Both the position numbers and the translations under genes were made by a program. From Escherichia phage JH2, in the sequence record KF055347: a stretch of DNA of 64,000 nucleotides; one strand, 5' to 3'. The notes beneath the pieces were generated by a model, which saw nothing but the letters and a program-made list of their open reading frames with translations, was not told the DNA's origin and ran no database searches. Shown here piece by piece: positions 325-49,878 of the stretch (position 1 is its first letter; every line of letters begins with the position of its first letter).

Positions 325-888
325 TTATCCTAAAAAGTCCTTTAAATTGCGTTCTGTGAGGTTTTCCGTGATTTTATCCAGTAGGTCACAAAACACGGAA
401 CTATCACCGCTATTCTGTACAATTTTTGCAATACTCAACAAATCATCGTCAACATATCCCAAATTGCGGTTTTTCGTATCAGGTACAAAGAAAGGTGCAT
501 ACATCGCACTAAATTTCGTTGAGTGGATACTAACAATCCAATTTTTATCAAAGTATCCGGTAAAGCTGGCAATTTCGCTCATGTTGTCACAAGAATAATC
601 GTCCTCTAGTTCTTCCTCTGGGATATCCATTTCAATAACAATTACGTCCTGCGTTTCCATTTGGAAAGCTGCTGTGATAAGCCCCGACTCTAAGGCGCTT
701 TGAATGCAGCGTTCACGGATATAAGAGACTTCCTCATCTTCCAGACATTCCGTTTTGATAACCTTATTCATTGGATAAACATAGAAACAATCGTCCATGT
801 AGGAACAGTTCCAGATACCTTCAGGCTTATCGCCACCATTCAGCAGGTTTACAAAGTTTTTGAGTGTAGTTCCGTGATAGCATTTCAT
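325..888 (-). CDS. hypothetical early protein
   Basis: 187-aa ORF; start preceded on the coding strand by conserved CCTTAAACTAGGAGATTCAAAA leader. Confidence 0.5.
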   Translation of the reverse strand: MKCYHGTTLKNFVNLLNGGDKPEGIWNCSYMDDCFYVYPMNKVIKTECLEDEEVSYIRERCIQSALESGLITAAFQMETQDVIVIEMDIPEEELEDDYSCDNMSEIASFTGYFDKNWIVSIHSTKFSAMYAPFFVPDTKNRNLGYVDDDLLSIAKIVQNSGDSSVFCDLLDKITENLTERNLKDFLG

Positions 889-980
889 TTTTGAATCTCC
901 TAGTTTAAGGACTTGATTTAGTGGTAAAGCTCTTTATCTGGGGCTTACTTTATCGAACTATAAGCCCCTTGTAAAGTACT
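889..980 (-). promoter_or_regulatory. early intergenic cassette type A: GGGGCTTA..TAAGCCCC hairpin plus conserved AGGAGA leader
   Basis: near-identical ~90-bp sequence recurs between consecutive small genes; stem GGGGCTTA (940-947) pairs with TAAGCCCC (961-968). Confidence 0.55.
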
Positions 981-1184
981 TTATCGGTTATTTTTGATAA
1001 CTTTTAAAACTGCGCGGTATCCTAAGCAATAAGAATCACCGAAGAGCGACCGACCCATGAATGAATCCTCTTTGATATCCTTTGCAGTGACAGTCTTTTC
1101 TACGCCGTGAAAAAGAACTATATCGCCAACTTTGATATCTTTGATATGAGTAGTTTCAATGTTTAAACCGTTGATAATAGCCAT
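981..1184 (-). CDS. hypothetical early protein
   Basis: 67-aa ORF flanked by cassettes. Confidence 0.4.
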   Translation of the reverse strand: MAIINGLNIETTHIKDIKVGDIVLFHGVEKTVTAKDIKEDSFMGRSLFGDSYCLGYRAVLKVIKNNR

Positions 1185-1284
1185 TCTTGAATCTCCTAGT
1201 TTAAGGACTTTACTTAGTGGGGAGGTTATCCCTCCCGTTGATTAGTAATTTACTTGTTTTAAAAATCAATGTCAACAAAATTTT
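1185..1284 (-). promoter_or_regulatory. early intergenic cassette type B: GGGAGG..CCTCCC hairpin plus conserved leader
   Basis: GGGAGG (1220-1225) pairs with CCTCCC (1231-1236); same unit recurs at 2048-2134. Confidence 0.5.
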
Positions 1285-1689
1285 TTAGAGTTCTGCATAA
1301 ATTGCATCGCAGATACCACGAAAATCATGATTTGTCAAATTACGTTGTAACCAAGTGGCGAAAAAGTCAGCGATTGCAAAGTTAGCGTCATACTCGACAG
1401 ATAGCCATACTTTAACAGCAAATCTAAGCATTTTCAAATCCAGCTCTCTATTCATTACCTTAGATTTGCCTAACATGTCGGTCATTTCATATTGCGCACC
1501 GTCTAGCGTGATACCGGCTGCAACGTCAGCCAATGAGTTTTTTACGCTTTCAACGTCTAAGATAACACTTTGAATCTTCCCGATAATGTTTTGCAGTGTT
1601 TCGTCTGGCGCTGATGACGTGATAACATTAATCCGGTTGACGGTCAAACGTGCTTTTAAGATTAATAATTCGCGGTTATTAATAGCCAT
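1285..1689 (-). CDS. hypothetical early protein
   Basis: 134-aa ORF flanked by cassettes. Confidence 0.5.
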   Translation of the reverse strand: MAINNRELLILKARLTVNRINVITSSAPDETLQNIIGKIQSVILDVESVKNSLADVAAGITLDGAQYEMTDMLGKSKVMNRELDLKMLRFAVKVWLSVEYDANFAIADFFATWLQRNLTNHDFRGICDAIYAEL

Positions 1690-1774
1690 TTTTGAATCTC
1701 CAATTTAGGATTTAGTGGTAAAGCTCTTTATCTGGGGCTTACTTTATCGAACTATAAGCCCCTTGTAAAGTACT
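1690..1774 (-). promoter_or_regulatory. early intergenic cassette type A
   Basis: repeat of ctctttatctggggcttactttatcgaactataagccccttgtaaagtactttat. Confidence 0.55.
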
Positions 1775-2047
1775 TTATACTAAATGCAGCTTTTTACCTT
1801 TTACTATGATGTAACTTGATGCGCTATTGCTGCAAACATCCTGATAAATTCTGCGCAAACGGCCTTCATAGTATACTTTCCAACTAGTTGGAATCTTTTT
1901 ACCATATCCCGTAGCAGTTTTTTGGAATCCAGCAAGTTGCCAATCCAAAATATGTTGTTCAGCTTGTAAATCCTCGAAGTGCATTACACCGTTCACATAG
2001 TGGCGCAAAGTTACATTTAGAGTACGACCGTTGTTAGTAGTATACAT
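1775..2047 (-). CDS. hypothetical early protein
   Basis: 90-aa ORF flanked by cassettes. Confidence 0.45.
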   Translation of the reverse strand: MYTTNNGRTLNVTLRHYVNGVMHFEDLQAEQHILDWQLAGFQKTATGYGKKIPTSWKVYYEGRLRRIYQDVCSNSASSYIIVKGKKLHLV

Positions 2048-2134
2048 TTTCTAATCTCCTAGTTTAAGGACTTTACTTAGTGGGGAGGTCATCCCTCCCG
2101 TTGATTAGTAATTTACTTGTTTTAAAAACCAAAA
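2048..2134 (-). promoter_or_regulatory. early intergenic cassette type B
   Basis: second copy of the GGGAGG..CCTCCC hairpin unit. Confidence 0.5.
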
Positions 2135-2467
2135 TCAAGAGAAATTTTTTCGTTTGCTCAATTCTTGAACAATTACAGCGTAGTAGTCTTTTAAGTCACT
2201 GATATTTAAAGCATTTATCAGTGAATTATAATCATCGACTAACTGAAAATCATCTTTGAAGATATCACTTATCTGATAGGTTTTCGCTTTGAATCTGAAG
2301 CTCATTTCTAGCCGCTTTATTTGCTCATCACTTAAACGCTCCAGAAAGCTCATTACAAGGCTATTATTGACCTGTTGCGTGATTGCCTTACTTGCCAGAT
2401 TGTAGGCGCTGTAAGCCTTATAAAGTGCTATAATGGCGATGATTGCAGTGATGCCCATCATTAGCAT
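2135..2467 (-). CDS. hypothetical membrane-associated early protein
   Basis: 110-aa ORF; N-terminus MLMMGITAIIAIIALY is hydrophobic. Confidence 0.5.
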   Translation of the reverse strand: MLMMGITAIIAIIALYKAYSAYNLASKAITQQVNNSLVMSFLERLSDEQIKRLEMSFRFKAKTYQISDIFKDDFQLVDDYNSLINALNISDLKDYYAVIVQELSKRKNFS

Positions 2468-2757
2468 GGTGTTACCTCTCTGCGTGATACTTTACCATTT
2501 ACAGTTATCTCATAAGCTTCTAATAAATCACTTTCAGATTTAACAGGACTTTTAAAAGTATCATCATAAACATTAATTTGCAATACAGGCTTTTTATACT
2601 CCCTGCAACTATTCCATAAGCAAATTACTACGCGACGGCCTTTTATTTTGCCGTGTAACCATTCCATAACATCATGACTATTTCTTGATGTCTCGATAAA
2701 ATCAATTTTATTGAGTAATTTGCTTAGATTTTCACGCACTTGATTTGATAATTTCAT
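2461..2757 (-). CDS. hypothetical early protein
   Basis: 98-aa ORF; 7-nt overlap with the downstream gene. Confidence 0.45.
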   Translation of the reverse strand: MKLSNQVRENLSKLLNKIDFIETSRNSHDVMEWLHGKIKGRRVVICLWNSCREYKKPVLQINVYDDTFKSPVKSESDLLEAYEITVNGKVSRREVTPC

Positions 2758-2849
2758 TTTTGAATCTCCTAGTTTAAGGGCTTTATTTGATAAATCTCTT
2801 TATCTGGGGCTATCCTACCAGCTTGTTAGCCCCGTGTAAAGAAATCTAT
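2758..2849 (-). promoter_or_regulatory. early intergenic cassette, type A variant
   Basis: same leader; hairpin variant ggggctatcctaccagcttgttagcccc. Confidence 0.45.
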
Positions 2850-3362
2850 TTAGTTCTTAAAGATATTCATCACTGAATCTTTCAACGATTCCAAACGTTC
2901 TAATACTTCAGATTCTGCGTCTGCGTTGTTCACCTCTTCTTTTAGTCTATCCTCTAAATCATCGCCGTCACGATAGCGCCAATCGAAAGCGTAACCAAGA
3001 TAAAAACTTTCTAAAACCGTGCTACCGTTTGCATCCACAACTTTCGCGGCAAGGCTATACTCTGAAGCCTCTAAATCTCTTTCTAGTTCTTTCTGTAAGC
3101 TTGTGTAAGCCTCTTTCGATGGATTCTCACGGCCTTGTTTTGCATAGTCACTTGAAAGCTGCTTAAGGCTGTAATGCAAAGGGATTGCATATTTAAACTC
3201 ATTACGCTGACAGTTGGTGTTTTTAATAGTTACACCGCCTTGATGGTCATCTGTAAACTCCCAATTATCCATATTATGGCTTGCTTCGTAGCAATTAACA
3301 GCCTCATAAATGATGGAAAATTTTTCTTTTACAACTTCAAAGGTAGCGTCTACAGTTTTCAT
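2850..3362 (-). CDS. hypothetical early protein
   Basis: 170-aa ORF. Confidence 0.5.
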   Translation of the reverse strand: MKTVDATFEVVKEKFSIIYEAVNCYEASHNMDNWEFTDDHQGGVTIKNTNCQRNEFKYAIPLHYSLKQLSSDYAKQGRENPSKEAYTSLQKELERDLEASEYSLAAKVVDANGSTVLESFYLGYAFDWRYRDGDDLEDRLKEEVNNADAESEVLERLESLKDSVMNIFKN

Positions 3363-3457
3363 TTTTGAATCTCCTAGTTTAAGGACTTGATTTAGTGGTA
3401 AAGCTCTTTATCTGGGGCTTAAGATATCAACTTTTAAGCCCCTTGTAAAGTACTTTA
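3363..3457 (-). promoter_or_regulatory. early intergenic cassette type A, GGGGCTTAA..TTAAGCCCC variant
   Basis: ggggcttaagatatcaacttttaagcccc followed by ttgtaaagtactttat. Confidence 0.55.
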
Positions 3458-3730
3458 TCAGATTAAATTGCCAGTTAATGATAAGTGCATTTTATAGCCT
3501 TTTTTGGTAAAAACGTTCACTTTACCGAGTGATTTTACACCTTTAAAAATGTTGTTTGAACTGCGTTTTAAGGTTAGTTGCTTATCAGCTTTCACGCCCC
3601 ACCTTACAGCAGTTTGTTTTCCGTTGTCAACCACTTTTCCGCATAACTTTTTAGCCATAACGCGAGCGTCATCACGAGTCTTTGCAGTAATTACAACGTT
3701 TTTGATAATAGCCATTTTTAAGTTCTCCAA
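3458..3730 (-). CDS. hypothetical early protein
   Basis: 90-aa ORF, basic. Confidence 0.45.
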   Translation of the reverse strand: MENLKMAIIKNVVITAKTRDDARVMAKKLCGKVVDNGKQTAVRWGVKADKQLTLKRSSNNIFKGVKSLGKVNVFTKKGYKMHLSLTGNLI

Positions 3731-3804
3731 TTTAGGATTTAGTGGTAAAGCTCTTTATCTGGGGCTTACTTTATCGAACTATAAGCCCCTTGTAAAGTAC
3801 TTTA
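3731..3804 (-). promoter_or_regulatory. early intergenic cassette type A
   Basis: repeat copy. Confidence 0.55.
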
Positions 3805-4185
3805 TTAGTTAATTTTGAAAATTGTCACATAACCATCGCTCCCGATGATTTGTGATACCCCAGCTTTCTCTACTTGATAGCCCATATTTTCAAGATGGTA
3901 AACAGCATCATCGTAACCATATGCGCCACCCTGATAACGTCGCTTATCACATTTTATCAGGTTTTTACCGCGTCCAGCAAGTGCATTCAGTACGGCTTTT
4001 TCACTTGATAGTGTACCATCTATCATGGTTGCCGTGTAATGGTTGATTTTATTCCCATTAATATCATACTTAAAATTGAATGCGTGAACAATAATCAATT
4101 TACCGTTAAATTTTTCATCAAGTGACTTCTCCAGTGCGTTGCGGAAGTTGTCTTTATTGATGAATTTCGGTGCACGATAAGCCAT
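3805..4185 (-). CDS. hypothetical early protein
   Basis: 126-aa ORF. Confidence 0.5.
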   Translation of the reverse strand: MAYRAPKFINKDNFRNALEKSLDEKFNGKLIIVHAFNFKYDINGNKINHYTATMIDGTLSSEKAVLNALAGRGKNLIKCDKRRYQGGAYGYDDAVYHLENMGYQVEKAGVSQIIGSDGYVTIFKIN

Positions 4186-4273
4186 TTTAGAATCTCCTAG
4201 TTTAAGGTAAGTTAGTAAAGCTCTTTATCTGGGGCTTAAGATATCAGCTTTTAAGCCCCTTGTAAAGTACTTT
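4186..4273 (-). promoter_or_regulatory. early intergenic cassette type A
   Basis: repeat copy, ggggcttaagatatcagcttttaagcccc. Confidence 0.55.
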
Positions 4274-4480
4274 TTATATATCGTAATAGTAAACCGCTGT
4301 CTGTTTTATATGTCGCTTTGTATTCTTTGTTAGGTAGCAATTAGAGTTAATTGCCGTTTCTACATAGTTGCAATAATCAGCTTCTGATATTCTACGCCAT
4401 GCGCCGCACACTTGCATATAAAAACGTTTTGCCTTTGTGTTAACGTTGGTTGTAACCATCAATTCGCGACTGTACATCAT
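4274..4480 (-). CDS. hypothetical early protein
   Basis: 68-aa ORF; first gene downstream of the repeat-rich non-coding region. Confidence 0.4.
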   Translation of the reverse strand: MMYSRELMVTTNVNTKAKRFYMQVCGAWRRISEADYCNYVETAINSNCYLTKNTKRHIKQTAVYYYDI

Positions 4481-35328: not shown

Positions 35329-35585
35329 GTAAGCCTCTTTTAAGTAACTATTAAGTTTTAATCTTTTATCTTAACGTATTCTATACGTTATACTTTAAAG
35401 CTTTTTAAAAGCTATTAAATAATCTTTTAAGAGTTTTAAAGTATCTGTATAGTTAAACTGTTAAGTAACCTTTTAAGTAAAAACCCACTTCGCAAAGATT
35501 AACACCTTGTCAAGTACATTGTCAACTTGCTTTTTATAATTTTTTGCAGTAATGTATGTGGTTAATGATTTTAGAGGGAGTAAAA
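35329..35585. promoter_or_regulatory. divergent AT-rich intergenic control region
   Basis: 257 bp between divergent gene blocks; repeated CTTTTAAG motifs, duplicated TTGTCAA, TATAAT hexamer; GAGGGAG RBS before the polymerase start. Confidence 0.45.
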
Positions 35586-37728
35586 ATGGAAAACGTAGAT
35601 TTTAAAAACTTACATTTAGTTGGCGATACAGAAACTGATGGTTTACTCCTTGAGTTCACTAAAGTGCACGTAATGGCTTTCGCAGACTATAAATCTGACG
35701 ATGAAGAGCCACCTGTATGGGTCTTTACAGATGAGCCTATCCTCGGCCACAAGTATACCAAGTACATTAAAGGTGGTTTGCGTGAAGGTGTCGAGTTTGC
35801 GTTAAAGGCAAAACGGCTTTGCATCCATAATGGTCTGGGGTATGACTGGTGGGTTTTCAATCACATTGCACCTGATTTGTGGAACTTTGATAATCCAAAG
35901 TGTAAACCGTGGAGTAATTTCTTTCAGGATTCTCTTATCCAGTCTCGTGTTCAGTGGATGGATAGACCAACTCCAAAGGGTTATAAAGGTGCTCATGGTT
36001 TGGCTGCATGGGGTGCTCGTGTTGGTGTACGTAAACCAGAGATTGAACATTGGGGTGTGTGGAATGCAGAAATCTTCACTCGTGTTGTAGAAGATATCCG
36101 TATTAACGCCAAAACTAAACGTGCACTGGATAATGAATATCTCAAGCTGAAGAAGTGTGGCGTAGATACTTATGAAACCTACATGCGAGCTAAAGAAACA
36201 TCTTTCTGGATGAGTCAACAAGCTATCAATGGTTGGAAAGCTGATAAAGAACTTATGGAGTTCCATGTAAAGGAACTTGACAAGTTGACTAATGAGCTTG
36301 CTTCAGAAGTTGAACCACATCTTCCTCCAACTATTAAGACCAAAGGTAAAGTCACTGGAGAAGAGTTTGCAAAAGCTTGGAATGAGTATGTTGAAGCATT
36401 CGGTCATGCAGATGGACTGAAGAGAATTACCAAGTACCCTAAGACAAAGTATCGTCAGCAGGTACGTAACGGTGAGATGCAGACATATGAAATTAAGCCA
36501 TTTGGTAAGCCAACTACAAAGATTTTTAACATTGAAAAGCGGAATTGCTATACACCAACCAACTCTGTAACTGGTGAAGAGTACAAGGAAGGTTTTGTAG
36601 CAATGAAGGATGCTCGTGCAATTTGCAATGAGTTGAATGCAAAGATTGGTAAGAAATGCAAAGACTGGAAGCCAGTAAAAACAGTTAAAACTGTGAAGTA
36701 CTATAACAGTCATGTTGTGAACCACTTTGAGCTTGAGTCAAGTCGCTACACAGGTTTGATTGATGCACCATATACACCAATTGAGTTTGAAGTTTCTCGA
36801 ATGACTCAGGTGGCTGTTGTGAAGGACTACTTGAAATCAGTTGGTTGGATTCCTGATGACTGGAACTATAAGAAAGACTCTGATGGTCGTCCTGTTAAGG
36901 TTTGTCGTTTCAAAGACAACAAAAAGATGATTACCAAACATCCTAAATGGGATGAGATGGTTGAACGGTGCGGTTTGAGTTATGTTGAACATGAAGGTGT
37001 ACAGTACATTGAGCATAACTGGTCTGTTAAGAAGTACACAGATTTGCTTGAACCTTGCTTAATCCGTACTTCACCAAAACTTACTGAATCATCTTATGAT
37101 ACGATTGAAGGTGAGCTTGGGCAGAAGATTGCAAAATACTATACCTTGATGCACAGACGCAGAACTATTGAGAACTCAAAGGATGATGAAAAAGGTTGGT
37201 TAAACCAGATTCGTCCTGATGGTCGCCTTAGTGCTGGTGCAATGGTGTTTGGTACTTCAACTGGACGTATGACACAATATGGTATTGTAAACGTACCGTC
37301 TGGCGCTGCTGTCTATGGAGCACCCATGAGGGAAGTTTGGACTTGTGAAGAGGGTACTAATATTGTTTCAGCCGACATGAATAGCGCCCAACTTGTGCTG
37401 CTGTGTAACTTTATGGGTGATAAAGATTTCACTAAAGCGGTGACAGAGGGTAAAGAAGAGGTTGAGTTTGTCAAACAAGAGGATGGTAGATACTATTGCA
37501 AACATTTTAACCAGTATCTAAACCCAGCTATTGACAAGTATTTACATTATGATTCTGAAAATGACTTATACGTGGTGTACTCAGGGACTGATGCACATAC
37601 TTTAAACAGTATCTACTTCAGCCTTAATAAAGAGGAAGACATCTTGACATGTCGAGCTACTCAGGATGCAAATCTTCTTCAAGAAATTAGTAAAGGCCGT
37701 AAGAAAGCCAAAAATGGCATTTATGCGT
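35586..37728 (+). CDS. DNA polymerase family A, exon 1 (3-prime-5-prime exonuclease plus polymerase through first half of motif B)
   Basis: Exo I motif LVGDTETDGL; ends ..RKKAKNGIY inside motif B; start moved to ATG 35586 with RBS. Confidence 0.75.
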
Positions 37729-38530
37729 CAGTGGCGCATGTAAAACGTTGTGAATTGCTGGAAGCCTAAGTCTGTAAAGATATGGTAATCAGCAGCGAAG
37801 TCTCTGTTAGGACTCCTAAAACAAAGGAGAGAGACAATGGCAGGTTACGAAGAGAGATTATGCACTGAGTGTGGTACGGAGTTTAAACCATATCAATACA
37901 ATCAGAAACGGTGCAGAAGTTGTGTATTAAAGTTTGACAGAAGGGCAGAACACAGGGTTCTTACTAAGAAATGCCCTAGTTGTGAGAAGGTGTTCATGCC
38001 GAGAACAGCAAGGCAAGTTTATTGTTCGTCACATTGCGGTGAGAAAGGTAGAGTTAAGAATTACTACCTAAGAACATATGGATTGGAAAGAGAAGAGGTT
38101 GAGTCTCTACTCCGTGACTGTGATTACAAATGTCAAATTTGTGGCGGCGAAGGTTTTATCATGAATGGTTCACGACACAAGGCTAAACTTGTTGTTGACC
38201 ATGACCATAAAACCGGAAAGGTAAGAGGTATGTTATGCCACAATTGCAACAGAGCTTTGGGGTTGCTTGCAGATAGTGTTGATAACATGCAAAGAGCGAT
38301 TGACTATCTAAGCAAATGATATAACTATAGAGATTCCTAACAGAGAAACGTTCAGAGACTATCGAAAAGCATACTTAACGTATGAACTGAGTAGAGTAGG
38401 GTGGTAAGCTAATGACCATCCCCAAGTGCAACGGTAGCATCACTGCTACGTGATATAGTCCGACACTCCGTAGAAATGCGGAGAAGTTCATAAGAGAACT
38501 GGTACACCTTGCGAGTGTATTGACCAGATG
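37729..38530 (+). mobile_element. group I intron in the DNA polymerase gene carrying an EndoVII-type HNH ORF
   Basis: polymerase motif B split (..KNGIY / ..LFGAGDEKFAK); exon 1 ends in U at 37728; intron ends in G at 38530; conserved GATATAGTCC at 38452-38461; boundaries inferred. Confidence 0.65.
37837..38319 (+). CDS. intron-encoded HNH endonuclease, endonuclease VII-like
   Basis: 160 aa; VVDHDHKTGKVRGMLCHNCNRALG typical of EndoVII-type HNH; several CxxC pairs; good RBS. Confidence 0.65.
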   Translation: MAGYEERLCTECGTEFKPYQYNQKRCRSCVLKFDRRAEHRVLTKKCPSCEKVFMPRTARQVYCSSHCGEKGRVKNYYLRTYGLEREEVESLLRDCDYKCQICGGEGFIMNGSRHKAKLVVDHDHKTGKVRGMLCHNCNRALGLLADSVDNMQRAIDYLSK

Positions 38531-39087
38531 TATTGTTCGGGGCTGGCGATGAGAAATTTGCTAAGACGATTAAAGCATCTACAACTGAGGAAGGTGCTTT
38601 AACTAAGCAAACATACTTTGTACGTCTCCCTAAAATTAAGAAGTTGATAGATAATTTAGAAGCAGACTTCAAAGCCACTAAGAAGGCTCTTGAAGAGGTA
38701 TTTGGTAAGACTGCCGCAATCTCTAAAGGGGGGTTTGTAAAGGTTGCTGGAGCTTGGTTGTGGTGTAAATCTCCACATAAGTTATTGAATTATTTGCTTA
38801 TGGGTTCGGAAAGTCAGGTTCAGAATGAAGCCATCAACCTCGCTTGTAGAAGAACTTGTGAAGAGGGTCTTACAAAGTTGAATGGTCGAAAACCAGCTAT
38901 TGGCGCTAGATTGCTTTTAGCATATCACGATGAGAATAGTTGGGAGTGTCCAGAAGACATGACGCAGGATGTTAAAGCAGTAATTGACTGGATGTATGGT
39001 CAAGCATCAAGAAATTTAGGGCTTAAGGAGGAAACTCTCGTAACTGGCACTGGTAAAGTTGGTAAAAATTGGCTTGAGGTACACTGA
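38531..39087 (+). CDS. DNA polymerase family A, exon 2 (second half of motif B through C-terminus)
   Basis: begins LFGAGDEKFAK aligning with T7 gp5 ..YGAGDEKIG; no ATG start, consistent with an exon. Confidence 0.7.
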
Positions 39088-39148
39088 TTAGTATTGACAA
39101 GGTGCTCATGGAAGAGTACCTTATACAATATCTTATATAGGAGGTCAC

Positions 39149-39367
39149 ATGACGCTTTCAGAGATTGAAGTTCAGTTGCAATGTGCAGGTTATTCTCAAA
39201 AAGAGATTGAAGGGATGTTTATTGTTCTTTGCAGTAGCTGTAGGAATTTGAAGGTAAAACCTGAAGTTCTACGTAGAGTCGATATCTTTATTGCTGGAGG
39301 CAAAATCGCAAAAGATAAGACGGGTTACTTAAAAGGTGAGCGTGTAAACATTGAGACTTTACTATGA
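39149..39367 (+). CDS. hypothetical small protein, paralog A
   Basis: 72 aa; AGGAGG RBS; C-terminus IAGGKIAKDKTGYLKGERVNIETLL similar to ORF 39570..39782. Confidence 0.5.
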   Translation: MTLSEIEVQLQCAGYSQKEIEGMFIVLCSSCRNLKVKPEVLRRVDIFIAGGKIAKDKTGYLKGERVNIETLL

Positions 39368-39573
39368 GCCACCGTGGAAGAACCCATGCAGCAATGATGA
39401 AAGGTGCTTCAAAGGAAACTATCAAGAATCGTAAACAGAAGTTGTTTGAGAGGATGAACAGGTTAATTGACAATTCATCTCTTTCAGGTTCTGAGAAGGT
39501 TTTCTTGAAAGGTAATCTGAAAAGCATTGCACAAGAACTTATTGACATTGAGTATTGGAGACACCAAAAATGA
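39364..39573 (+). CDS. hypothetical basic protein
   Basis: 69-aa ORF, ATGA coupling at both ends. Confidence 0.4.
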   Translation: MSHRGRTHAAMMKGASKETIKNRKQKLFERMNRLIDNSSLSGSEKVFLKGNLKSIAQELIDIEYWRHQK

Positions 39574-39782
39574 CACTTGCAGACGTTATTCAGCAACTTC
39601 ACAACAACTGCTACACTCCAGAGTTGATTCAGGAGATGCTCATTGTAGTAATACCTAGTAAGTTCGTAAAAGGTTTTAATCGTGACTCCTTAATGTCTGC
39701 ACATATCATTATTGTTGACGGTAAGATTGCAAGAGACCGTACAGGAGTCCTTAAGGGTGAACGTATTAGCATTGACATCTGA
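39570..39782 (+). CDS. hypothetical small protein, paralog B
   Basis: 70 aa from ATG 39570; IVDGKIARDRTGVLKGERISIDI parallels paralog A; upstream DNA motif repeated at 39774-39803. Confidence 0.5.
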   Translation: MTLADVIQQLHNNCYTPELIQEMLIVVIPSKFVKGFNRDSLMSAHIIIVDGKIARDRTGVLKGERISIDI

Positions 39783-39799
39783 GTATTGGAGATACCAAA

Positions 39800-39955
39800 A
39801 TGAAACGCAAAGTAAAATTCTTTAGTTTATATGGAAGAGTCGGTAAAGGTTTTGATTGGCAACTCCTACGTTCAGATGTTAAAAGCAACGAGTTAGCACA
39901 GCTTATTATAAACTATCGACGAACGTACAGAGAAGTAGAACATCGTGAACAGTAA
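39800..39955 (+). CDS. small basic protein (not in ORF track, under 60 aa)
   Basis: hand translation MKRKVKFFSLYGRVGKGFDWQLLRSDVKSNELAQLIINYRRTYREVEHREQ; preceded by the duplicated leader motif. Confidence 0.3.
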   Translation: MKRKVKFFSLYGRVGKGFDWQLLRSDVKSNELAQLIINYRRTYREVEHREQ

Positions 39956-39968
39956 CAGGAGAAGTATT

Positions 39969-40205
39969 ATGTGGAAAGCAGTAATTGTGCTTAGTGTTAT
40001 CTTTCTATCTGGCTGTAATCCCTCTTACGAGGACAAAAACGCTTCTTATAGCCTCCCACCAGAGATGCAAGATTGCAAAGTCTATAAGTTACATGGTGAT
40101 GCCATAAGCAGAGACATTGTTGTTGTCAGATGTCCAAACTCTCAAACAACAACATCTTATAGCTATGGTAAAAATGGTCAATCACACACTACTGTTATTG
40201 AGTGA
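39969..40205 (+). CDS. putative lipoprotein
   Basis: signal peptide MWKAVIVLSVIFLSG-C with lipobox; start at ATG 39969 behind AGGAGA RBS; longest ORF begins 39945. Confidence 0.5.
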   Translation: MWKAVIVLSVIFLSGCNPSYEDKNASYSLPPEMQDCKVYKLHGDAISRDIVVVRCPNSQTTTSYSYGKNGQSHTTVIE

Positions 40206-40578: not shown

Positions 40579-40770
40579 ATGAATAAAGAAGACAAGCATA
40601 AAAATGCTGTACGGACTCCTGATGGAAAGGTTCAATCCTTCATCCTGACAGTTGGTGGAAATCCGTTTCGTTGCCACTGCGGAGCAAACTGTTTTCATAA
40701 ACCAGATAAAAATGACTTAGAGCTTTACGCATGTAATGCTTGCAATACTTGGTATCACTCAGAGGAATAA
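40579..40770 (+). CDS. hypothetical Cys-rich small protein
   Basis: 63 aa; CHCGANC...CNAC. Confidence 0.4.
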   Translation: MNKEDKHKNAVRTPDGKVQSFILTVGGNPFRCHCGANCFHKPDKNDLELYACNACNTWYHSEE

Positions 40771-40771
40771 A

Positions 40772-41875
40772 ATGACAATACTGTACAAACAAAATAAAGA
40801 CGGCTCTTTTAGCGTCTGGTCATGCGTTGCTGTAGGTGACAAAGTTGTTACCACGTATGGCAAAGAAAATGGCAAGATGATGTTTGAAGAGTATACAGCA
40901 GAACCTAAAAACATCGGTAAAAAGAATGAGCGTAACGCTGAACAACAAGCTCTCTTTGAAGTTGCTGCAAAGTATAAAAAGCAGGTTGACCGCAAAGGTT
41001 ATGCTTACACAAAAGAGTCTGCACAGAATACTGAGAAGGTAGGTGTACAGCTTGCTCATGATGCTGCAAAGGTTAGCCATGCAAAGTATCTGAAGTTCCC
41101 TGCTGATGCTCAACCGAAACTTGATGGTGTCCGTTGTAGGATTTCAAGGCACTTGAGTATTGGCAGTGTATTTACAGCATATTCTCGTGAGAATACTGTT
41201 TACAAAATCCCTACTGAACTAATACCTGACATTATGGCAATGTTAAGGCTCCACAAAGATGTTGATGAATTTGATGGAGAGATTTATGCTCATGGGTGGG
41301 ACTTAGAAGATATCGTCTCCATGATTAAAAATGAAGACAATCCTGACAGACACTTGCTCAAGTTTTACTGGTATGATATCTGCGACAGTACTAAGACGTG
41401 GCCTGAGCGTAGAGATATCATTGAGACTTCACCATTGAATGACTTTAGAGACGGCTGTAAAGTTGTTCCTGTTAAGTCTCGTCGTGTGAACTCTTGGGAA
41501 GAGTTTGATGAAGCTCATGATAAGTGGGTTGAAGCTAAGTTTGAAGGTGCAATGTACCGTTCAATCTCTGAAGAATCTTTCTACGAGTGTTGTCACCGTT
41601 CATACTTCTTGATTAAGCACAAGAAGATGCACACTGAAGAGTTTAAAGTGACTGGTGTCAAGACCGATAAACGTGGTCATGGCAAGTTCGTTGTAGAGAC
41701 TCTTCCTAACGTCTTTGTAGATGTATCATGGAAGACTACTCATGAGAAGAAACAGTATCTTGCTGAGCATCCTGAAGAGTTTATCGGGAAACCTTTAACG
41801 GTTCAGTTCCAGAAGATGACTCGTAAGGGGTCTTTACAGTTCCCTGTTGGTCTAGTTATACGAGATTATGAATAA
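40772..41875 (+). CDS. ATP-dependent DNA ligase
   Basis: adenylation motif KLDGVRC (KxDG); start at ATG 40772 after GAGGA RBS; longest ORF begins 40736. Confidence 0.75.
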   Translation: MTILYKQNKDGSFSVWSCVAVGDKVVTTYGKENGKMMFEEYTAEPKNIGKKNERNAEQQALFEVAAKYKKQVDRKGYAYTKESAQNTEKVGVQLAHDAAKVSHAKYLKFPADAQPKLDGVRCRISRHLSIGSVFTAYSRENTVYKIPTELIPDIMAMLRLHKDVDEFDGEIYAHGWDLEDIVSMIKNEDNPDRHLLKFYWYDICDSTKTWPERRDIIETSPLNDFRDGCKVVPVKSRRVNSWEEFDEAHDKWVEAKFEGAMYRSISEESFYECCHRSYFLIKHKKMHTEEFKVTGVKTDKRGHGKFVVETLPNVFVDVSWKTTHEKKQYLAEHPEEFIGKPLTVQFQKMTRKGSLQFPVGLVIRDYE

Positions 41876-46316: not shown

Positions 46317-48662
46317 TTAAGCAGTTCTCACCCAAGCCATTAACTTATAGAACTGGTTAATTACACTAAATGCTGAACCAGAACCTGTACCACCAGTGTT
46401 ACCACTTACTGTGTGGCTGTGAGCACCAATACCAACTGAGTGAGCGTGGTTACCATTTGATGCAGCAGTACCACTTACTGAGTGTGAGTGATTCCCAGCA
46501 CTACCCGTTTGTACGGTATTTCTGTTACCATCAGAATCCCAATCACCCCTTGTACCACTTGGTTGCGCACCAGTAATATAACCATGTGTATGAGCACCTG
46601 TTGTATTCGTTGAACCACTCACTGAGTGGGTGTGAGCACCAGTAGTGTTAGTGGTTTTAGTACCGTAGTCAAAGCTAGAGGTTGTCGCAGAGAAACTATG
46701 CGTGTGTGAAGGTAAGTTACCAACAGCTAACGTCACAGAATCTGAACCACCTGTTGTAGCAACATCTGAACCGTTTGCTGCTGCAATTCTGATAGTTCTA
46801 CCAACACCATTGTTGAGGTACGTCCAAGTTAGACCAGGAAGTGCTGTATTAGGGTTAACATTGCTGTTAAACCAAGTTACAATACCTACTGGATAGATTT
46901 TATTAAGGTCTGTAGAGTCACTAATTGCCTGTGCAATCTTCTGGTCAGTTTCAGCTTTAGTGTATGCACCAATATCTGAAGGGGTTGGTTTAAAATCAGT
47001 TGTGTAAAGCTGTGCTTCCCCAGCATATCTGCCGTCTTTGTCATAGGCATAGGTGAATGTTGCCAGTCCATTTGAGCCATACACAAAAGAGATTCCTCTT
47101 GCATGTGCAGCAGTCTTATTAGAGTGAGCAACATGAATTGCCAACTCTTTCAGTCCACTAGTAACAGCATTGTTTCTGACAAAACCTGAGTACCCAAGAT
47201 TAAACCCTGAAGGGTTTTCAAGGTTATCTACAGATAATGTCATTAAGGATTGGTTTAATAACTGAGTTTTAACAAAATATCTAGCATCTAAGTTAGAAAA
47301 GTTCGAAGGTTGAACTTGACCAGTGATTGCTAAATTCTTATTCGCAACAATTGCTGATGGTTCAAGGGCAATTTGAGTACCAGAGTAACTATTGTTTAAG
47401 GTTACCACATTAGAGTTTGGGCCACCTACACCTAACCACCACCTCGATACGTTCGCGGTATCCACACCACGGATATATAGCGGTTGCCCCTGTGTCAAGT
47501 TTCTTAATACTAAACCTTCGTTATTTGATACGATAGTCTGCACATTCACGAAAGTGTTTGCCACATTAAGTTTAGGGAGATTACTCAAAGTAGCTGCTGG
47601 AATATATCTAGAGTCAATATTAGCCCAATCAGAAGGTTGAACTTGACCAGTGATTCTGAAGTCCTTGTTTACTGCGACATGCCCATTGTCAAGTCTAAGA
47701 TAAGAACCATACACATAGTTGCTGATGAATACAGCAGGTGTATTATCACCATTTCCTACATACCACTTACCAGAACCATCATTAGCTTCGGCTTTAACGT
47801 ATAGTGCAGCATTTGCTACAGTATTTTTCAACCTTAAAGCAGCACTGTCACTAATAATAAGTAGGTTTCTGCTAAACGTGTTAGTGCCAGTGAAATTGTT
47901 ATTAGCAGCTAACTGTGCAAATCTCTGATTAGCAACTGTCTGTGTGAAGTATCTAGCATCTAAGTTAGAGAAGTCAGAAGGTTGAACTTGACCAGTGATT
48001 GCTAAAGACTTATTAACAGAGACATTGCTTGCAATAGTCAAAGCTGAGTCATATTTATTATTGTACAGTTGCACTGCATCAGAGCCATTTTTACTAATAC
48101 CAACCAACCATCTAGCTGAACCATCTAGGTTTACACCTTCAATATATTGTGCATTGTTTGCATTTTGGTTTCTAAGGCGAAGTAAGTTAACATCACCTTG
48201 AATGTTCTGAGTTCCAGAGAATGTGTTTGTGACAGCAAGCCTTGCATATCTTGCATCATTCTCTTCATTAGTTCTCATACCAAGCTCATTAGGGCTTGGC
48301 TTATTCAGAGTATGATAAACAGTTGCCGACCTTGAAGCATCTGCAATAGTTAGTTTAAGACCATTTGCGTTGATTTTAAAAGTCTTTAAAACATCCCCAA
48401 TATTAATCTCAGAAGAACCTGTAGGGTCAAAGACTGCCTTACCACCATAAAGTAACTTAACAATACCTAAGTCACCCGTCATAGTACTACCAGCAATCTG
48501 AACAAATCTCTCAAGTTTAAAAGACGCTAAGAAGTCTTGATAGGTCATTCGACGGTCTTCATCACCTAGCATTTCAGGTCTCTTTTTAACCCTGACATGA
48601 AGAAGGTCATCTGAACGGATTGTGTCGATTGAGTTTAATTCACTCAACTTGTAATCTGCCAT
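46317..48662 (-). CDS. long tail fibre protein with triplicated internal module and His-rich C-terminal tip
   Basis: 781 aa; ITGQVQPS(D/N)(F/W)(S/A)N(L/I)D(A/S)RY occurs three times; C-terminal HTHS/HSHS/HAHS motifs shared with the neighbouring fibre gene. Confidence 0.7.
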
Positions 48663-48682
48663 TATAAATTTTCCTCTTAAAA

Positions 48683-48698
48683 GGGGCTATAAAGCCCC
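48683..48698 (-). terminator. hairpin between the two fibre genes
   Basis: GGGGCT-ATAA-AGCCCC followed by a T-run on the minus strand; preceded by TTTACA. Confidence 0.4.
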
Positions 48699-48708
48699 TG
48701 TAAAGAAA

Positions 48709-49878
48709 TTAAGCTGTTCTTTGCCATACATAAACTACAAAAGATGGTTGCTCAACACTAAATGCTTGACCAGCACCAACAGACCCTGTAGTTCCTGAAT
48801 GGGTGTGTTCTCCAACTCCAGTAATGCTAACCGTTACATTGTGTGAATGTGCCCCGATAGCAACAGTGTGTGAGTGCGAGCCAATAGCCACCGTGTGATT
48901 ATGATTACCATTAGACGCAGCAGTACCACTGATGGAGTGAGAGTGGTTACCAGCACTATCTGTCTGAACAGTATTCCTGTGCCCATCCCTATCCCAGTCC
49001 CCTGACGCACCAGTATCTTGGTAACCAGTGACATATCCATGCGTGTGAGCACCTGTTGTATTTGTTGAACCACTCACAGAGTGTGTATGAGCACCAGTAG
49101 TGTTTGTGGTCTTAGTACCGTAATCAAATGACGAGGTTGATTTAGTACCATAATCAAACGCACTAACTGAGACATTTGCACCATGACTATGATTTCCACC
49201 TGTTAGGTAGATAGAATGACTGTGTGATGGTAAATTGTTGCTAGACAAACTAACACTACTAGAGCCAAAGTTACTACCGACTGGCCTTGAGTTATCACTG
49301 TAGCCTACTAATGCCCGACCTTTTGATACCAACTCCCAAGTACCTCCACAAATTAGGTAGGTAGCTGGGTTAGCAGAGTTCATCGAAAGGTGCAATGTAC
49401 CAACAGGATAAGAAGCCTGAACAGCCTTATACAAGTTATTTACTGCTCTTGCTGTAGCGTACTTATCTGCATCCTCATTATAAAGGTTAGATGTTGTCCA
49501 GTTCTGGACATTACTTAAACCAACCTGCGCCTTAGTTGTATTGTGTGGGTTGCTCTTGTCATTAATATGCTGTTGAATAAGGCTATTAACCTCTTCTGAA
49601 GACATAATCTGTAGATTTGCTCTTGCCTCAGCTACATTAACAATATCTGATAAGTTATTTGCAGCAACTAACTGAAGAGCATTAATAACATTGTCTAGAC
49701 CAATTTGTGTCTTAGTAACACCATGAGGGTTATTTCTTAGGCTTGAGTGTGGAGCAAGTAGTTGCTCAAGAGTACATCTCTTATCCTCAATACCCTGCTT
49801 AAGATGGAAGATATCACTAAGGTCAATTGGTAAGGCTGCTTGAGGCAAGGCACTAATTTGAATTTCACCTACTGCCAT
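48709..49878 (-). CDS. tail fibre protein with His-rich C-terminal tip
   Basis: 389 aa; C-terminal ~120 aa near-identical to the long fibre tip with repeated HxH motifs. Confidence 0.65.
   Translation of the reverse strand: MAVGEIQISALPQAALPIDLSDIFHLKQGIEDKRCTLEQLLAPHSSLRNNPHGVTKTQIGLDNVINALQLVAANNLSDIVNVAEARANLQIMSSEEVNSLIQQHINDKSNPHNTTKAQVGLSNVQNWTTSNLYNEDADKYATARAVNNLYKAVQASYPVGTLHLSMNSANPATYLICGGTWELVSKGRALVGYSDNSRPVGSNFGSSSVSLSSNNLPSHSHSIYLTGGNHSHGANVSVSAFDYGTKSTSSFDYGTKTTNTTGAHTHSVSGSTNTTGAHTHGYVTGYQDTGASGDWDRDGHRNTVQTDSAGNHSHSISGTAASNGNHNHTVAIGSHSHTVAIGAHSHNVTVSITGVGEHTHSGTTGSVGAGQAFSVEQPSFVVYVWQRTA

What the first reader, a model, noticed from the sequence alone, without database searches (positions are those of the whole stretch)
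39149..39957. Tandemly duplicated small-gene module with paralogous proteins
ORFs 39149..39367 and 39570..39782 share a C-terminal (I/V)xGGKIA(K/R)D(K/R)TG(Y/V)LKGER(V/I)xI motif, and the sequence TTGACAT(T/C)(T)GAGTATTGGAGA(C/T)ACCAAAA-ATG recurs at 39543 and 39774. Both units are followed by a small basic ORF. A recent duplication of a small module in the replication block may indicate dosage or diversification of a host-interaction factor.
Basis: seen in the sequence. Interest (0 to 1): 0.4.

Follow-up and report, generated by a model that had tools for sequence, protein, structure and literature searches.

The report
Old phage paralogs plus recombination scar
Two small genes of a Felix O1-like phage are real but anciently diverged copies of one phage-only family, and the short DNA repeat beside them is a leftover piece of the neighbouring gene's end, carried along by recombination; this is ordinary phage mosaicism, not a recent module duplication.

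Summary
The window is a Felixounavirus; O1 and O3 are 100% identical to Escherichia phage JH2 proteins JH2_060 and JH2_062. ORFs 39149-39367 (O1) and 39570-39782 (O3) are full-length paralogs: 39% identity, E 3e-14, both phrog_4230. A 21-nt core repeat (about 32 nt extended) occurs exactly twice in 64 kb.

The interpretation does not hold.
- The copies are old: 51% nucleotide identity, dS about 2.35.
- The two following basic ORFs, O2 and O4, are unrelated (hhalign probability 0.2%).
- At most 33 of 250 related phage records carry both copies.
- O1 is a precise 216-bp present/absent cassette.

Repeat copy 1 is the coding 3' end of O2 (…IDIEYWRHQK*), which also holds the Shine-Dalgarno sequence for the next gene. 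Copy 2 is a relic of that O2 tail. It is fused in frame to the end of O3 at the ATT GAC codons, and now supplies O3's stop codon and O4's ribosome-binding region. The same relic precedes a Tad2-like gene in phage SUSP2, and it occurs in phage EC6, which has no O2.

The function of the family remains unknown: confident AF2 model, no fold or sequence match. Low interest.

The parts
39094..39148 (+). Conserved promoter-like block with the Shine-Dalgarno sequence, heading the small-gene array: TTGACA, then a 22-nt spacer containing the inverted repeat GGTGCT/AGTACC, then TATACA...AGGAGG
   Evidence: Unique in the window. Nearly invariant in all 13 aligned relatives, whether the upstream gene is the DNA polymerase or an inserted HNH-AP2 endonuclease, and whether the downstream gene is O1, O2 or O3. 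More distant relatives have a canonical TTGACA-N17-TATAAT at the same place, also with an inverted repeat in the spacer. Promoter activity is inferred, not shown.
39149..39367 (+). O1, 72-aa paralog 1 of phrog_4230 (identical to JH2_060). Its stop codon overlaps the O2 start (ATGA).
   Evidence: It is a precise 216-bp presence/absence cassette, from its own ATGA to the O2 ATGA, across relatives. AF2 model has pLDDT 91.
39364..39573 (+). O2, 69-aa basic helical protein (phrog_5180). Its last codons (IDIEYWRHQK*) contain the SD for O3, and its stop codon overlaps the O3 start.
   Evidence: Nucleotide identity to relatives is 96-99% where flanking genes are 72-92%. It is also present, without any phrog_4230 gene, in Erwinia phage M7. 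AF2 gives three helices, pLDDT 85.
39541..39572 (+). Repeat copy 1: ATTGACAT-TGAGTATTGGAGACACCAAAAATG. This is the native coding 3' end of O2 plus the start codon of O3.
   Evidence: Present in every relative that has O2, with only synonymous changes.
39570..39782 (+). O3, 70-aa paralog 2 of phrog_4230 (identical to JH2_062). This is the C-terminally remodelled allele ending ...GERISIDI*.
   Evidence: The 72-aa form in Felix O1 ends ...GERIDILELL*, with an ATGA overlap like O1.
39771..39802 (+). Repeat copy 2: ATTGACATCTGAGTATTGGAGATACCAAAATG. This is an ectopic relic of the O2 tail. It now provides the last two codons and the stop of O3, the 17-nt spacer, the SD and the start codon of O4.
   Evidence: Found only in relatives with the 70-aa O3 allele (79 records). 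Present in EC6 without O2, and in SUSP2 in front of a Tad2-like gene. Its SD is degenerate in several relatives.
39800..39955 (+). O4, 51-aa basic protein (phrog_2381), MKRKVK allele.
   Evidence: It is homologous to the O4' alleles (MKKMYSLWG / MNKLYSLWG) that directly overlap O3 in Felix O1-type phages. Not related to O2.

Best explanation
O1 and O3 are two anciently diverged copies of a single small alpha/beta protein family found only in Ounavirinae phages (phrog_4230). They lie on either side of the very conserved gene O2. All sit in a tightly packed, translationally coupled array of accessory genes between the DNA polymerase and DNA ligase genes, headed by a conserved promoter-like block.

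Genes in this array are gained, lost and swapped as precise start-to-start cassettes and by in-frame fusions near gene ends. The two-copy state is one minority combination produced by this shuffling, not a recent in-place duplication.

The DNA repeat is a recombination scar. In this array each gene's ribosome-binding site lies inside the last codons of the gene before it. A gene that once sat directly behind O2 (O4 here; a Tad2-like gene in SUSP2) was joined behind O3, and it kept the last ~30 nt of O2 as its translation-initiation region. The joint lies at the in-phase ATT GAC (Ile-Asp) codons that the O3 and O2 ends share. One extra base (C) then closed the O3 frame, giving ...IDI*.

Shown: the paralogy, the age of the copies, the cassette behaviour, that copy 2 is an O2-tail sequence, its occurrence without O2, and its occurrence in front of another gene.
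Inferred: the order of events, that copy 2 serves today as O4's RBS, promoter activity of the upstream block, and any protein function.
For: Paralogy and age:
- 39% identity, E 3e-14; same PHROG.
- 51% nucleotide identity, 37% at third codon positions, dS 2.35, dN 0.62.

Independent distribution of the copies:
- 250 phage records carry the family at 283 places, so at most 33 records have two copies.
- 186 of the 250 match O1 at below 60% identity only, the level of the O3-type (O1 and O3 themselves are 39% identical). Moogle-, Mordin- and Sf13-like phages have only the O1-type, upstream of O2.
- A chimeric O1/O3 allele exists (L020 / P0151).

Cassette behaviour:
- O1 is absent as an exact 216-bp ATGA-to-ATGA gap behind an identical promoter block.
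- O2 is likewise absent in EC6, S19cd and SUSP2.
- In L011, L016 and L017, the 5' end of O4' is fused in frame to O5.

Copy 2 is an O2 tail:
- Copy 1 encodes IDIEYWRHQK* in every O2. The ...ELIDIEY part is kept in Erwinia phage M7, whose O2 continues with a different, longer C-terminus.
- Copy 2 follows O3 only in the 70-aa allele class.
- Homology between O3 alleles breaks exactly at ATTGAC, window position 39776.

Before/after pair:
- L020 has the native O2 tail directly followed by a Tad2-like gene.
- SUSP2 has O3, then the O2-tail relic, then the Tad2-like gene, with no O2.

Second, independent example of the same process:
- In S19cd and ESCO45, O3 is fused in frame at the same GAC codon to the tail (...DLFF* plus spacer) of the gene that precedes O6 in EC6, L015 and SUSP2.

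Relaxed constraint on copy 2:
- Its SD reads GGGAAC, GGAAAC, GTGGAT or GGTATA in relatives, while copy 1 shows only synonymous changes.
Against: - No sequenced phage was found with O2 directly followed by O4. The 40 best of 233 hits to a synthetic O2|O4 junction all had O3 in between, so the 'before' state for O4 itself is inferred by analogy with the Tad2-like gene.
- The order of events cannot be resolved from the junction alone. O3 could have been inserted behind O2, or the body of an O2 copy behind O3 could have been deleted.
- O1-type and O3-type do not partition cleanly by genus. SUSP2 and Henu11, now classified in Mooglevirus, carry the O3-type.
- Only about 30 loci were read base by base. 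The remaining ~220 records were seen only as BLAST summaries.
- No expression data were available.
Confidence: 0.7

Rival explanations
1. Ancient duplication of a two-gene module. An ancestral A-B pair (phrog_4230 gene followed by an O2-type gene, coupled by ATGA) was duplicated to A1-B1-A2-B2. The body of B2 was later deleted between the ATTGAC microhomologies, leaving only its last ~25 nt in front of O4. The first reader's 'recent' version is the extreme form of this idea.
For: - Copy 2 lies exactly where O2 lies relative to O1, directly behind a phrog_4230 gene.
- EC6 and SUSP2 have O3 plus the O2-tail relic with no intact O2 anywhere nearby, as expected for a deleted A-B unit.
- O1-O2 adjacency is conserved in Moogle-like phages.
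Against: - No relative has O3 followed by an intact O2.
- In Felix O1 and in the distant relative L030, the phrog_4230 gene overlaps an O4-type gene directly, so A-O4 looks like the older linkage.
- Distant family members occur with no O2 at all (L028, L029), and O2 occurs with no A (Erwinia M7).
- The recent version is excluded by dS 2.35 and 51% nucleotide identity.
Confidence: 0.17
2. The repeat is a selected, portable regulatory or boundary element. It would be a promoter, translational enhancer or recombination 'linker' placed in front of different cassettes, functionally like the PeSL cassettes of T4-type phages, and maintained because it drives expression or promotes cassette exchange.
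For: - Both copies match TTGACA-N18-(A/C)AAAAT at 10 of 12 positions.
- The same sequence precedes at least four different genes across relatives: O3, O4, a Tad2-like gene, and the MSSxEE gene of Moogle-like phages.
- Repeated promoter/stem-loop cassettes do exist elsewhere in this genome (window 880-4300), and PeSL-mediated shuffling is documented in T4-type phages (PMC2839356).
Against: - The -10-like hexamer overlaps the start codon, so a transcript would lack the gene it precedes.
- Promoter-like sites are not enriched in the region: 13 found against 10.9 +/- 3.0 expected.
- The -35 of copy 2 is not conserved in relatives (TTGACC, TTAACC, TTGGCC), and its SD is degenerate in several.
- There is no stem-loop.
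- Only two copies occur in 64 kb.
- In three of the four gene contexts it is simply the end of the O2 gene.
Confidence: 0.08
3. Chance or trivial similarity. The protein resemblance is limited to a short motif, and the DNA repeat is only a common RBS context.
For: The strongest protein conservation is in the C-terminal GKIAxDxTGxLKGER motif. The repeat does include an SD and a start codon.
Against: - Full-length alignment with E 3e-14; same PHROG over residues 1-72 and 1-69.
- The 21-nt core has a chance expectation of 0.01 matches in the window.
- It includes 8 sense codons of O2.
Confidence: 0.01

Closest known systems
PHROG family phrog_4230 (unknown function). Annotated as 'hypothetical protein' JH2_060 / JH2_062, Felix O1 ORF215, bas63_0044.
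   Same: O1 and O3 match the profile over its full length (E 2.7e-36 and 5.4e-40). Identical proteins are already in GenBank for phage JH2.
   Different: Nothing differs at the family level. In the paper library searched I found no description of the two paralogs or of the O2-tail relic. That library excludes most subscription journals, including the original Felix O1 genome paper.
Mosaic evolution of tailed-phage genomes by illegitimate or microhomology recombination at gene boundaries. The general model is cited from my own knowledge (Hendrix and colleagues). The PhageMaP paper on the Felixounavirus Bas63 discusses such mosaicism (PMC11482910).
   Same: Presence/absence of single small genes with breakpoints at gene starts and ends. 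Alternative alleles are joined at short shared sequences, and only in-frame, expression-competent products survive.
   Different: Here the joint carries a recognisable relic of the former upstream gene's 3' end, because that end holds the SD of the following gene. The same relic is seen in front of two different genes.
PeSL (promoter-early stem-loop) cassettes of T4-type phages, which mediate modular shuffling in hyperplastic regions (Arbiol et al. 2010, PMC2839356; Comeau et al. 2014, PMC4122927).
   Same: A short repeated sequence at cassette boundaries in a variable region rich in small non-essential ORFs and homing endonucleases.
   Different: The repeat here has no stem-loop, no conserved promoter, only two copies, and is derived from coding sequence. 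A better PeSL-like candidate lies elsewhere in the window, at 880-4300.
Tad2-like (PF11195) Thoeris anti-defence genes
   Same: A borderline Tad2-like gene (24.9 bits against a cutoff of 25, E 3e-5) occupies the slot behind O2 in L020 and behind the O2-tail relic in SUSP2. This suggests the array may hold counter-defence cargo.
   Different: O1, O2, O3 and O4 themselves have no Pfam hit below E 0.1 and no convincing PADLOC hit; the one weak hit is O2, 13.9 bits, E 0.0036. No anti-defence role is shown for them.

Membership tests
phrog_4230 (Ounavirinae small protein, unknown function) | Significant full-length match to the family profile | tested here: met
   O1: E 2.7e-36, residues 1-72 on profile positions 1-72. 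O3: E 5.4e-40, residues 1-69 on profile positions 1-69.
phrog_4230 (Ounavirinae small protein, unknown function) | Conserved core residues shared by both paralogs and by distant members | tested here: met
   Invariant M1, Q9, L10, Y15, I20, M23, I46, K62, G63 and the near-invariant GxIxxDxTGxLxGE motif in 28 sequences. The exhaustive profile search finds only 11 cluster representatives among 1.84 billion proteins, all the same small phage protein.
Recent tandem segmental duplication of a two-gene module | Both genes of the unit are present twice | tested here: not met
   O2 and O4 give no BLASTP alignment, hhalign probability 0.2%, and belong to different PHROGs. Only the last ~25 nt of O2 recur.
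Recent tandem segmental duplication of a two-gene module | High nucleotide identity and low synonymous divergence between copies | tested here: not met
   51% nucleotide identity, 37% at third codon positions, dS 2.35.
Recent tandem segmental duplication of a two-gene module | Copy number varies as a unit among close relatives | tested here: not met
   O1, O2, O3 and O4 are each present or absent independently.
PeSL-type promoter/stem-loop shuffling cassette (T4-type phages) | Strong sigma-70 promoter conserved among copies and relatives | tested here: not met
   10 of 12 hexamer matches in the window. However, the -35 of copy 2 varies in relatives (TTGACC, TTAACC, TTGGCC), and the -10 overlaps the ATG.
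PeSL-type promoter/stem-loop shuffling cassette (T4-type phages) | Stem-loop terminator adjacent to the promoter | tested here: not met
   No terminator-like site at either copy. No inverted repeat within the repeat.
PeSL-type promoter/stem-loop shuffling cassette (T4-type phages) | Many copies dispersed through hyperplastic regions | tested here: not met
   Exactly two copies in 64 kb, even with 3 mismatches allowed.
Known anti-defence or defence-associated protein families (Pfam, PADLOC) | Profile match above the curated threshold | tested here: not met
   No Pfam hit below E 0.1 for O1-O4. No PADLOC hit for O1, O3 or O4; O2 gives one weak hit of 13.9 bits, E 0.0036.

The most novel reading that the evidence does not exclude
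Two linked ideas remain open.

(1) The polymerase-ligase interval of Ounavirinae may be a counter-defence or host-takeover island. A Tad2-like gene occupies the same slot in relatives. The two phrog_4230 paralogs could then be diversified inhibitors with different host targets, kept together in JH2-type phages because each neutralises a different host factor.

(2) The O2 tail may act as a portable translation-initiation 'linker' whose recurrence at cassette boundaries actively promotes cassette exchange. That would be a coding-sequence-derived analogue of T4 PeSLs.
Probability: 0.12. Interest if true: 0.5.

Novelty: new member of a known kind. Interest (0 to 1): 0.22.

Why it matters
It matters little on its own. 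It shows that a plausible 'tandem module duplication' is really an old paralog pair plus a recombination scar.

It also gives a clean, base-level example of how translationally coupled small-gene arrays in virulent phages are reshuffled. Because each gene's ribosome-binding site sits in the tail of the gene before it, a relocated gene drags a fossil of its former neighbour along. Such fossils can be used as markers to reconstruct former gene orders in mosaic phage genomes. They also warn annotators against reading short boundary repeats as regulatory motifs.

The phrog_4230, O2 and O4 proteins remain uncharacterised. A phrog_4230 gene is found in about 250 sequenced Ounavirinae records and an O2-type gene in most of them, including phages considered for therapy and biocontrol.

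Tried and rejected
- Function by sequence. Pfam, PADLOC, PHROG annotation and PDB sequence profiles gave nothing for O1-O4.
- Function by remote homology. An exhaustive HMMER profile search of 1.84 billion representatives found only 11 members, all the same phage family.
- RNA element. There are no Rfam hits in 39050-40000 even at E <= 1, and none in the whole window at gathering threshold. There are no tRNAs.
- Promoter reading of the repeat. Rejected, as detailed under the second rival explanation.
- Frameshift or readthrough extension of O3 through copy 2. Rejected. The in-frame continuation hits a stop after 6 codons, and the +1 frame (EYWRYQNETQSKIL*) is not preserved in relatives, where indels and substitutions vary.
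- Direct O2-O4 adjacency. A search with a synthetic junction found none among the 40 best records.
- Essentiality of the Bas63 homologues (bas63_0043 to bas63_0045). The PhageMaP paper text does not mention them, and its supplements are not held in the library.
- Felixounavirus comparative-genomics paper. It does not mention these genes.

Full report
**What the window is.**
DNA from 38500-40500 matches 252 phage records, almost all Felix O1-like (Felixounavirus and relatives), at up to 96% identity. O1 and O3 are 100% identical to hypothetical proteins JH2_060 and JH2_062 of Escherichia phage JH2, species Felixounavirus JH2.

The finding lies in a run of eight small plus-strand ORFs. Upstream is the DNA polymerase gene. 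Here it is split into 35556-37769 and 38533-39087 by an insert carrying an endonuclease VII-type ORF at 37837-38319. Downstream is an ATP-dependent DNA ligase gene at 40736-41875.

**Checking the observation.**
- O1 (39149-39367, 72 aa) and O3 (39570-39782, 70 aa) align over their whole length: 27/69 identical, no gaps, E 3e-14.
- Both match phrog_4230 from end to end.
- The 21-nt core TGAGTATTGGAGAYACCAAAA occurs at 39549 and 39780 and nowhere else in 64 kb, even with three mismatches. Chance expectation is 0.01.
- With flanks, the repeat is ATTGACAT(C)TGAGTATTGGAGA(C/T)ACCAAAA(A)TG, at 39541-39572 and 39771-39802.
- Both following ORFs are basic: O2 pI 10.3, O4 pI 10.2.

**Why it is not a recent module duplication.**
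- O2 and O4 are unrelated: no BLASTP alignment, profile-profile probability 0.2%, PHROGs 5180 and 2381.
- A codon alignment of O1 and O3 gives 51% nucleotide identity, 37% at third positions, dN 0.62 and dS 2.35, which is saturated.
- Outside the A genes and the 32-nt repeat, the two 'units' do not align.

**Behaviour in relatives.**
I read this interval base by base in about 30 loci from GenBank phages, IMG/VR and Logan contigs. I placed all window genes on them. The four genes vary independently:

| Architecture (P = promoter-like block) | Examples |
|---|---|
| P-O1-O2-O3-O4 | window, pEP20, OPT-SAL01, UAB_Phi87 |
| P-O2-O3-O4 | most, including Felix O1 and Bas63 |
| P-O1-O2-X | Moogle-, Sf13- and Mordin-like |
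| P-O3-O4, no O2 | EC6 |
| P-O3-O6 | S19cd |
| P-O3-(Tad2-like)-O6 | SUSP2 |
| P-Y-A-ligase, no O2 | two distant contigs |
| O2 with no phrog_4230 gene | Erwinia phage M7 |

A tblastn search with O1 finds the family in 250 phage records at 283 places, so at most 33 records have two copies. In 186 records the only copy matches O1 at below 60% identity, the level of the O3-type. L020 carries a chimeric allele with an O1-like N-terminus and an O3-like middle, placed upstream of O2.

**Cassette precision.**
A multiple alignment shows that O1 is present or absent as an exact 216-bp block. It runs from its own ATGA to the ATGA where its stop overlaps the O2 start. It sits behind a block, TTGACAAGGTGCTCATGGAAGAGTACCTTATAC(A/T)ATATCTT(A/G)TATAGGAGG, that is nearly invariant in all relatives. 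O2 is missing in the same exact way in EC6, S19cd and SUSP2. In L011, L016 and L017, the first ten codons of O4' are fused in frame to O5.

**What the repeat is.**
Copy 1 is the coding 3' end of O2. It encodes ...ELIDIEYWRHQK*, contains the GGAG that serves the next gene, and ends in the ATGA overlap. It is present in every O2, with only synonymous variation. The ...ELIDIEY part is kept even in Erwinia phage M7, whose O2 then continues with a different, longer C-terminus.

Copy 2 is found only behind O3, and only in one of three O3 3'-end classes:

- **Class I** (Felix O1 type, 72 aa) ends ...GERIDILELL* and overlaps O4' by ATGA, just as O1 (...GERVNIETLL*) overlaps O2.
- **Class II** (72 aa...GERINID|LSF*) is an in-frame fusion at the GAC codon. 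The partner is the tail GACTTATTCTTTTAAGG... (…ASDLFF*) of the gene that precedes O6 in EC6, L015 and SUSP2.
- **Class III** (70 aa, ...GERI(S/N)ID(I/L/F)*) continues into the O2-tail sequence.

Homology between class II and class III ends exactly at ATTGAC, window position 39776. ATT GAC is in the same codon phase in O3 and in O2. The primary recombinant would therefore have been an in-frame O3::O2-tail fusion. One extra base (the C at 39779) now gives the stop codon.

The class III junction followed by O4 is present in 79 phage records.

**The decisive comparisons.**
- EC6 carries O3 plus the O2-tail relic plus O4 but has no O2 gene. Copy 2 is therefore not a by-product of a neighbouring O2.
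- SUSP2 carries O3 plus TAAGTATTGGAGAAACCAAAAATGA followed by a borderline Tad2-like gene (PF11195, 24.9 bits against a cutoff of 25). L020 has the same Tad2-like gene directly behind an intact O2, with the native tail. This is a before/after pair. The gene downstream of O2 keeps the last ~25 nt of O2 when it is placed behind O3.
- Copy 2 is decaying. Its SD reads GGGAAC, GGAAAC, GTGGAT or GGTATA in different relatives, and its TTGACA reads TTGACC, TTAACC or TTGGCC.

**Mechanism I commit to.**
In this array the ribosome-binding site of each gene lies in the last codons of the preceding gene. Recombination with one crossover in homologous DNA (the promoter block, O2 or O3) and one at a short in-phase microhomology near a gene end yields viable phages only if the downstream gene keeps its initiation region. 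So a fossil of the former upstream gene's tail travels with it.

Copy 2 is such a fossil of O2 and today acts as O4's spacer and SD. I put about 0.7 on this.

The main rival, at about 0.17, is an ancient A-B module duplication followed by deletion of the second O2 body. It explains the position of the relic equally well. It is not favoured for three reasons. No O3-O2 adjacency exists in any genome seen. A-O4 overlap is found in Felix O1 and in a distant relative. And A and O2 each occur without the other.

A selected promoter or PeSL-like cassette is unlikely. The -10 overlaps the ATG, there is no stem-loop, only two copies exist, and the sequence is not conserved in relatives (PMC2839356 for the PeSL definition).

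**Function of the proteins.**
This remains unknown.
- phrog_4230 is tiny: 11 cluster representatives in 1.84 billion proteins, all small Ounavirinae proteins.
- O2 is a basic three-helix protein (pLDDT 85) with only unspecific matches.
- No Pfam, PADLOC or PDB sequence match was found.
- The borderline Tad2-like gene in the same slot in relatives hints that the interval may carry counter-defence cargo, but nothing ties O1 or O3 to that.
[quoted passage not shown] It does not mention these genes in the text, and its tables were not available.

**Verdict.**
The locus is an ordinary product of phage mosaic evolution: an old paralog pair of an uncharacterised, clade-restricted family, plus a short recombination scar derived from the end of O2. 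Interest is low. Its main value is as a clear example of how translation-initiation regions hitch-hike with relocated genes, and as a caution against reading boundary repeats as regulatory modules.

Noticed in passing
window 880-4300 (copies at about 883-985, 1677-1779, 3357-3459, 3704-3806, 4180-4273; shorter pieces at 1178, 2041, 2751): Five to six copies of a ~95-103-nt intergenic cassette. Read on the minus strand, each has a GC-rich stem-loop (GGGGCTTA...TAAGCCCC), promoter-like sequence, an SD (AGGAGAT) and an ATG. They are spaced 350-1700 nt apart between small minus-strand ORFs. This looks like the promoter/stem-loop (PeSL-type) regulatory cassettes of T4-type phages.
   Followed up: no
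window 35556-39087: The DNA polymerase gene is split into a 737-aa part and a 184-aa part by a ~760-bp insert carrying an endonuclease VII-type HNH ORF (37837-38319; PF02945, E 1e-19). Relatives such as LTH02 have one uninterrupted gene. A sub-threshold group I intron match lies at 37756-37846 (24.6 bits, E 7e-4; gathering score 50). The insert is probably an intron with a homing endonuclease.
   Followed up: partly
window 39094-39148: A promoter-like block that is nearly invariant across all relatives, more conserved than the flanking genes. It has a perfect TTGACA, but a 22-nt spacer (too long for sigma-70) containing the inverted repeat GGTGCT/AGTACC, before TATACA. Distant relatives have TTGACA-N17-TATAAT with an inverted repeat in the spacer at the same place.
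   Followed up: partly
window 39364-39573 (O2): O2 is 96-99% identical at the nucleotide level to relatives whose neighbouring genes are only 72-92% identical, and its protein is 100% identical in many of them. This is unusually strong conservation, including at synonymous sites, and is unexplained. A 104-aa antisense ORF (39288-39602) spans it.
   Followed up: no
L005, L009, L011, L012, L014-L020, L023, L025, L027, L031, L032: between the polymerase gene and the promoter block: Many relatives carry one of several divergent HNH_3 + AP2-domain homing endonuclease genes (167-183 aa) at this site. They share a conserved C-terminus...EEAHKAYCEAAIKLHGEFAKLS*. The window has none.
   Followed up: partly
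L020 3207-3410; L032 (SUSP2) 2032-2244: A 67-70-aa gene with a borderline Tad2-like (Thoeris anti-defence 2, PF11195) match (24.9 bits, cutoff 25, E 3e-5) occupies the slot that O3 or O4 occupy in the window.
   Followed up: partly
L023 (S19cd) ~2005-2030; L031 (ESCO45) ~2210-2236; L015, L024, L032 upstream of O6: A second 'tail fossil'. The 3' end ...GACTTATTCTTTTAAGG (…ASDLFF*) of the gene preceding O6 is fused in frame to O3 (giving ...INIDLSF*) in S19cd and ESCO45. The SUSP2 Tad2-like protein also ends ...ASDLFF, unlike its L020 homologue.
   Followed up: yes
GenBank GU169904.1 'Staphylococcus phage SA1' 94066-96275; MG065668.1 'Campylobacter phage A126': Records named for Staphylococcus and Campylobacter phages contain this Felix O1-like region at 94-99% identity. 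They are probably chimeric or mis-assigned database records.
   Followed up: no
window 46363-49139 and 47275-48014: A 277-nt direct repeat at 77% identity (46408-46684 and 48863-49139), and a three-copy 68-nt repeat with ~330-nt spacing (47275, 47602, 47947). These suggest internally repetitive or paralogous genes, possibly tail fibre genes.
   Followed up: no
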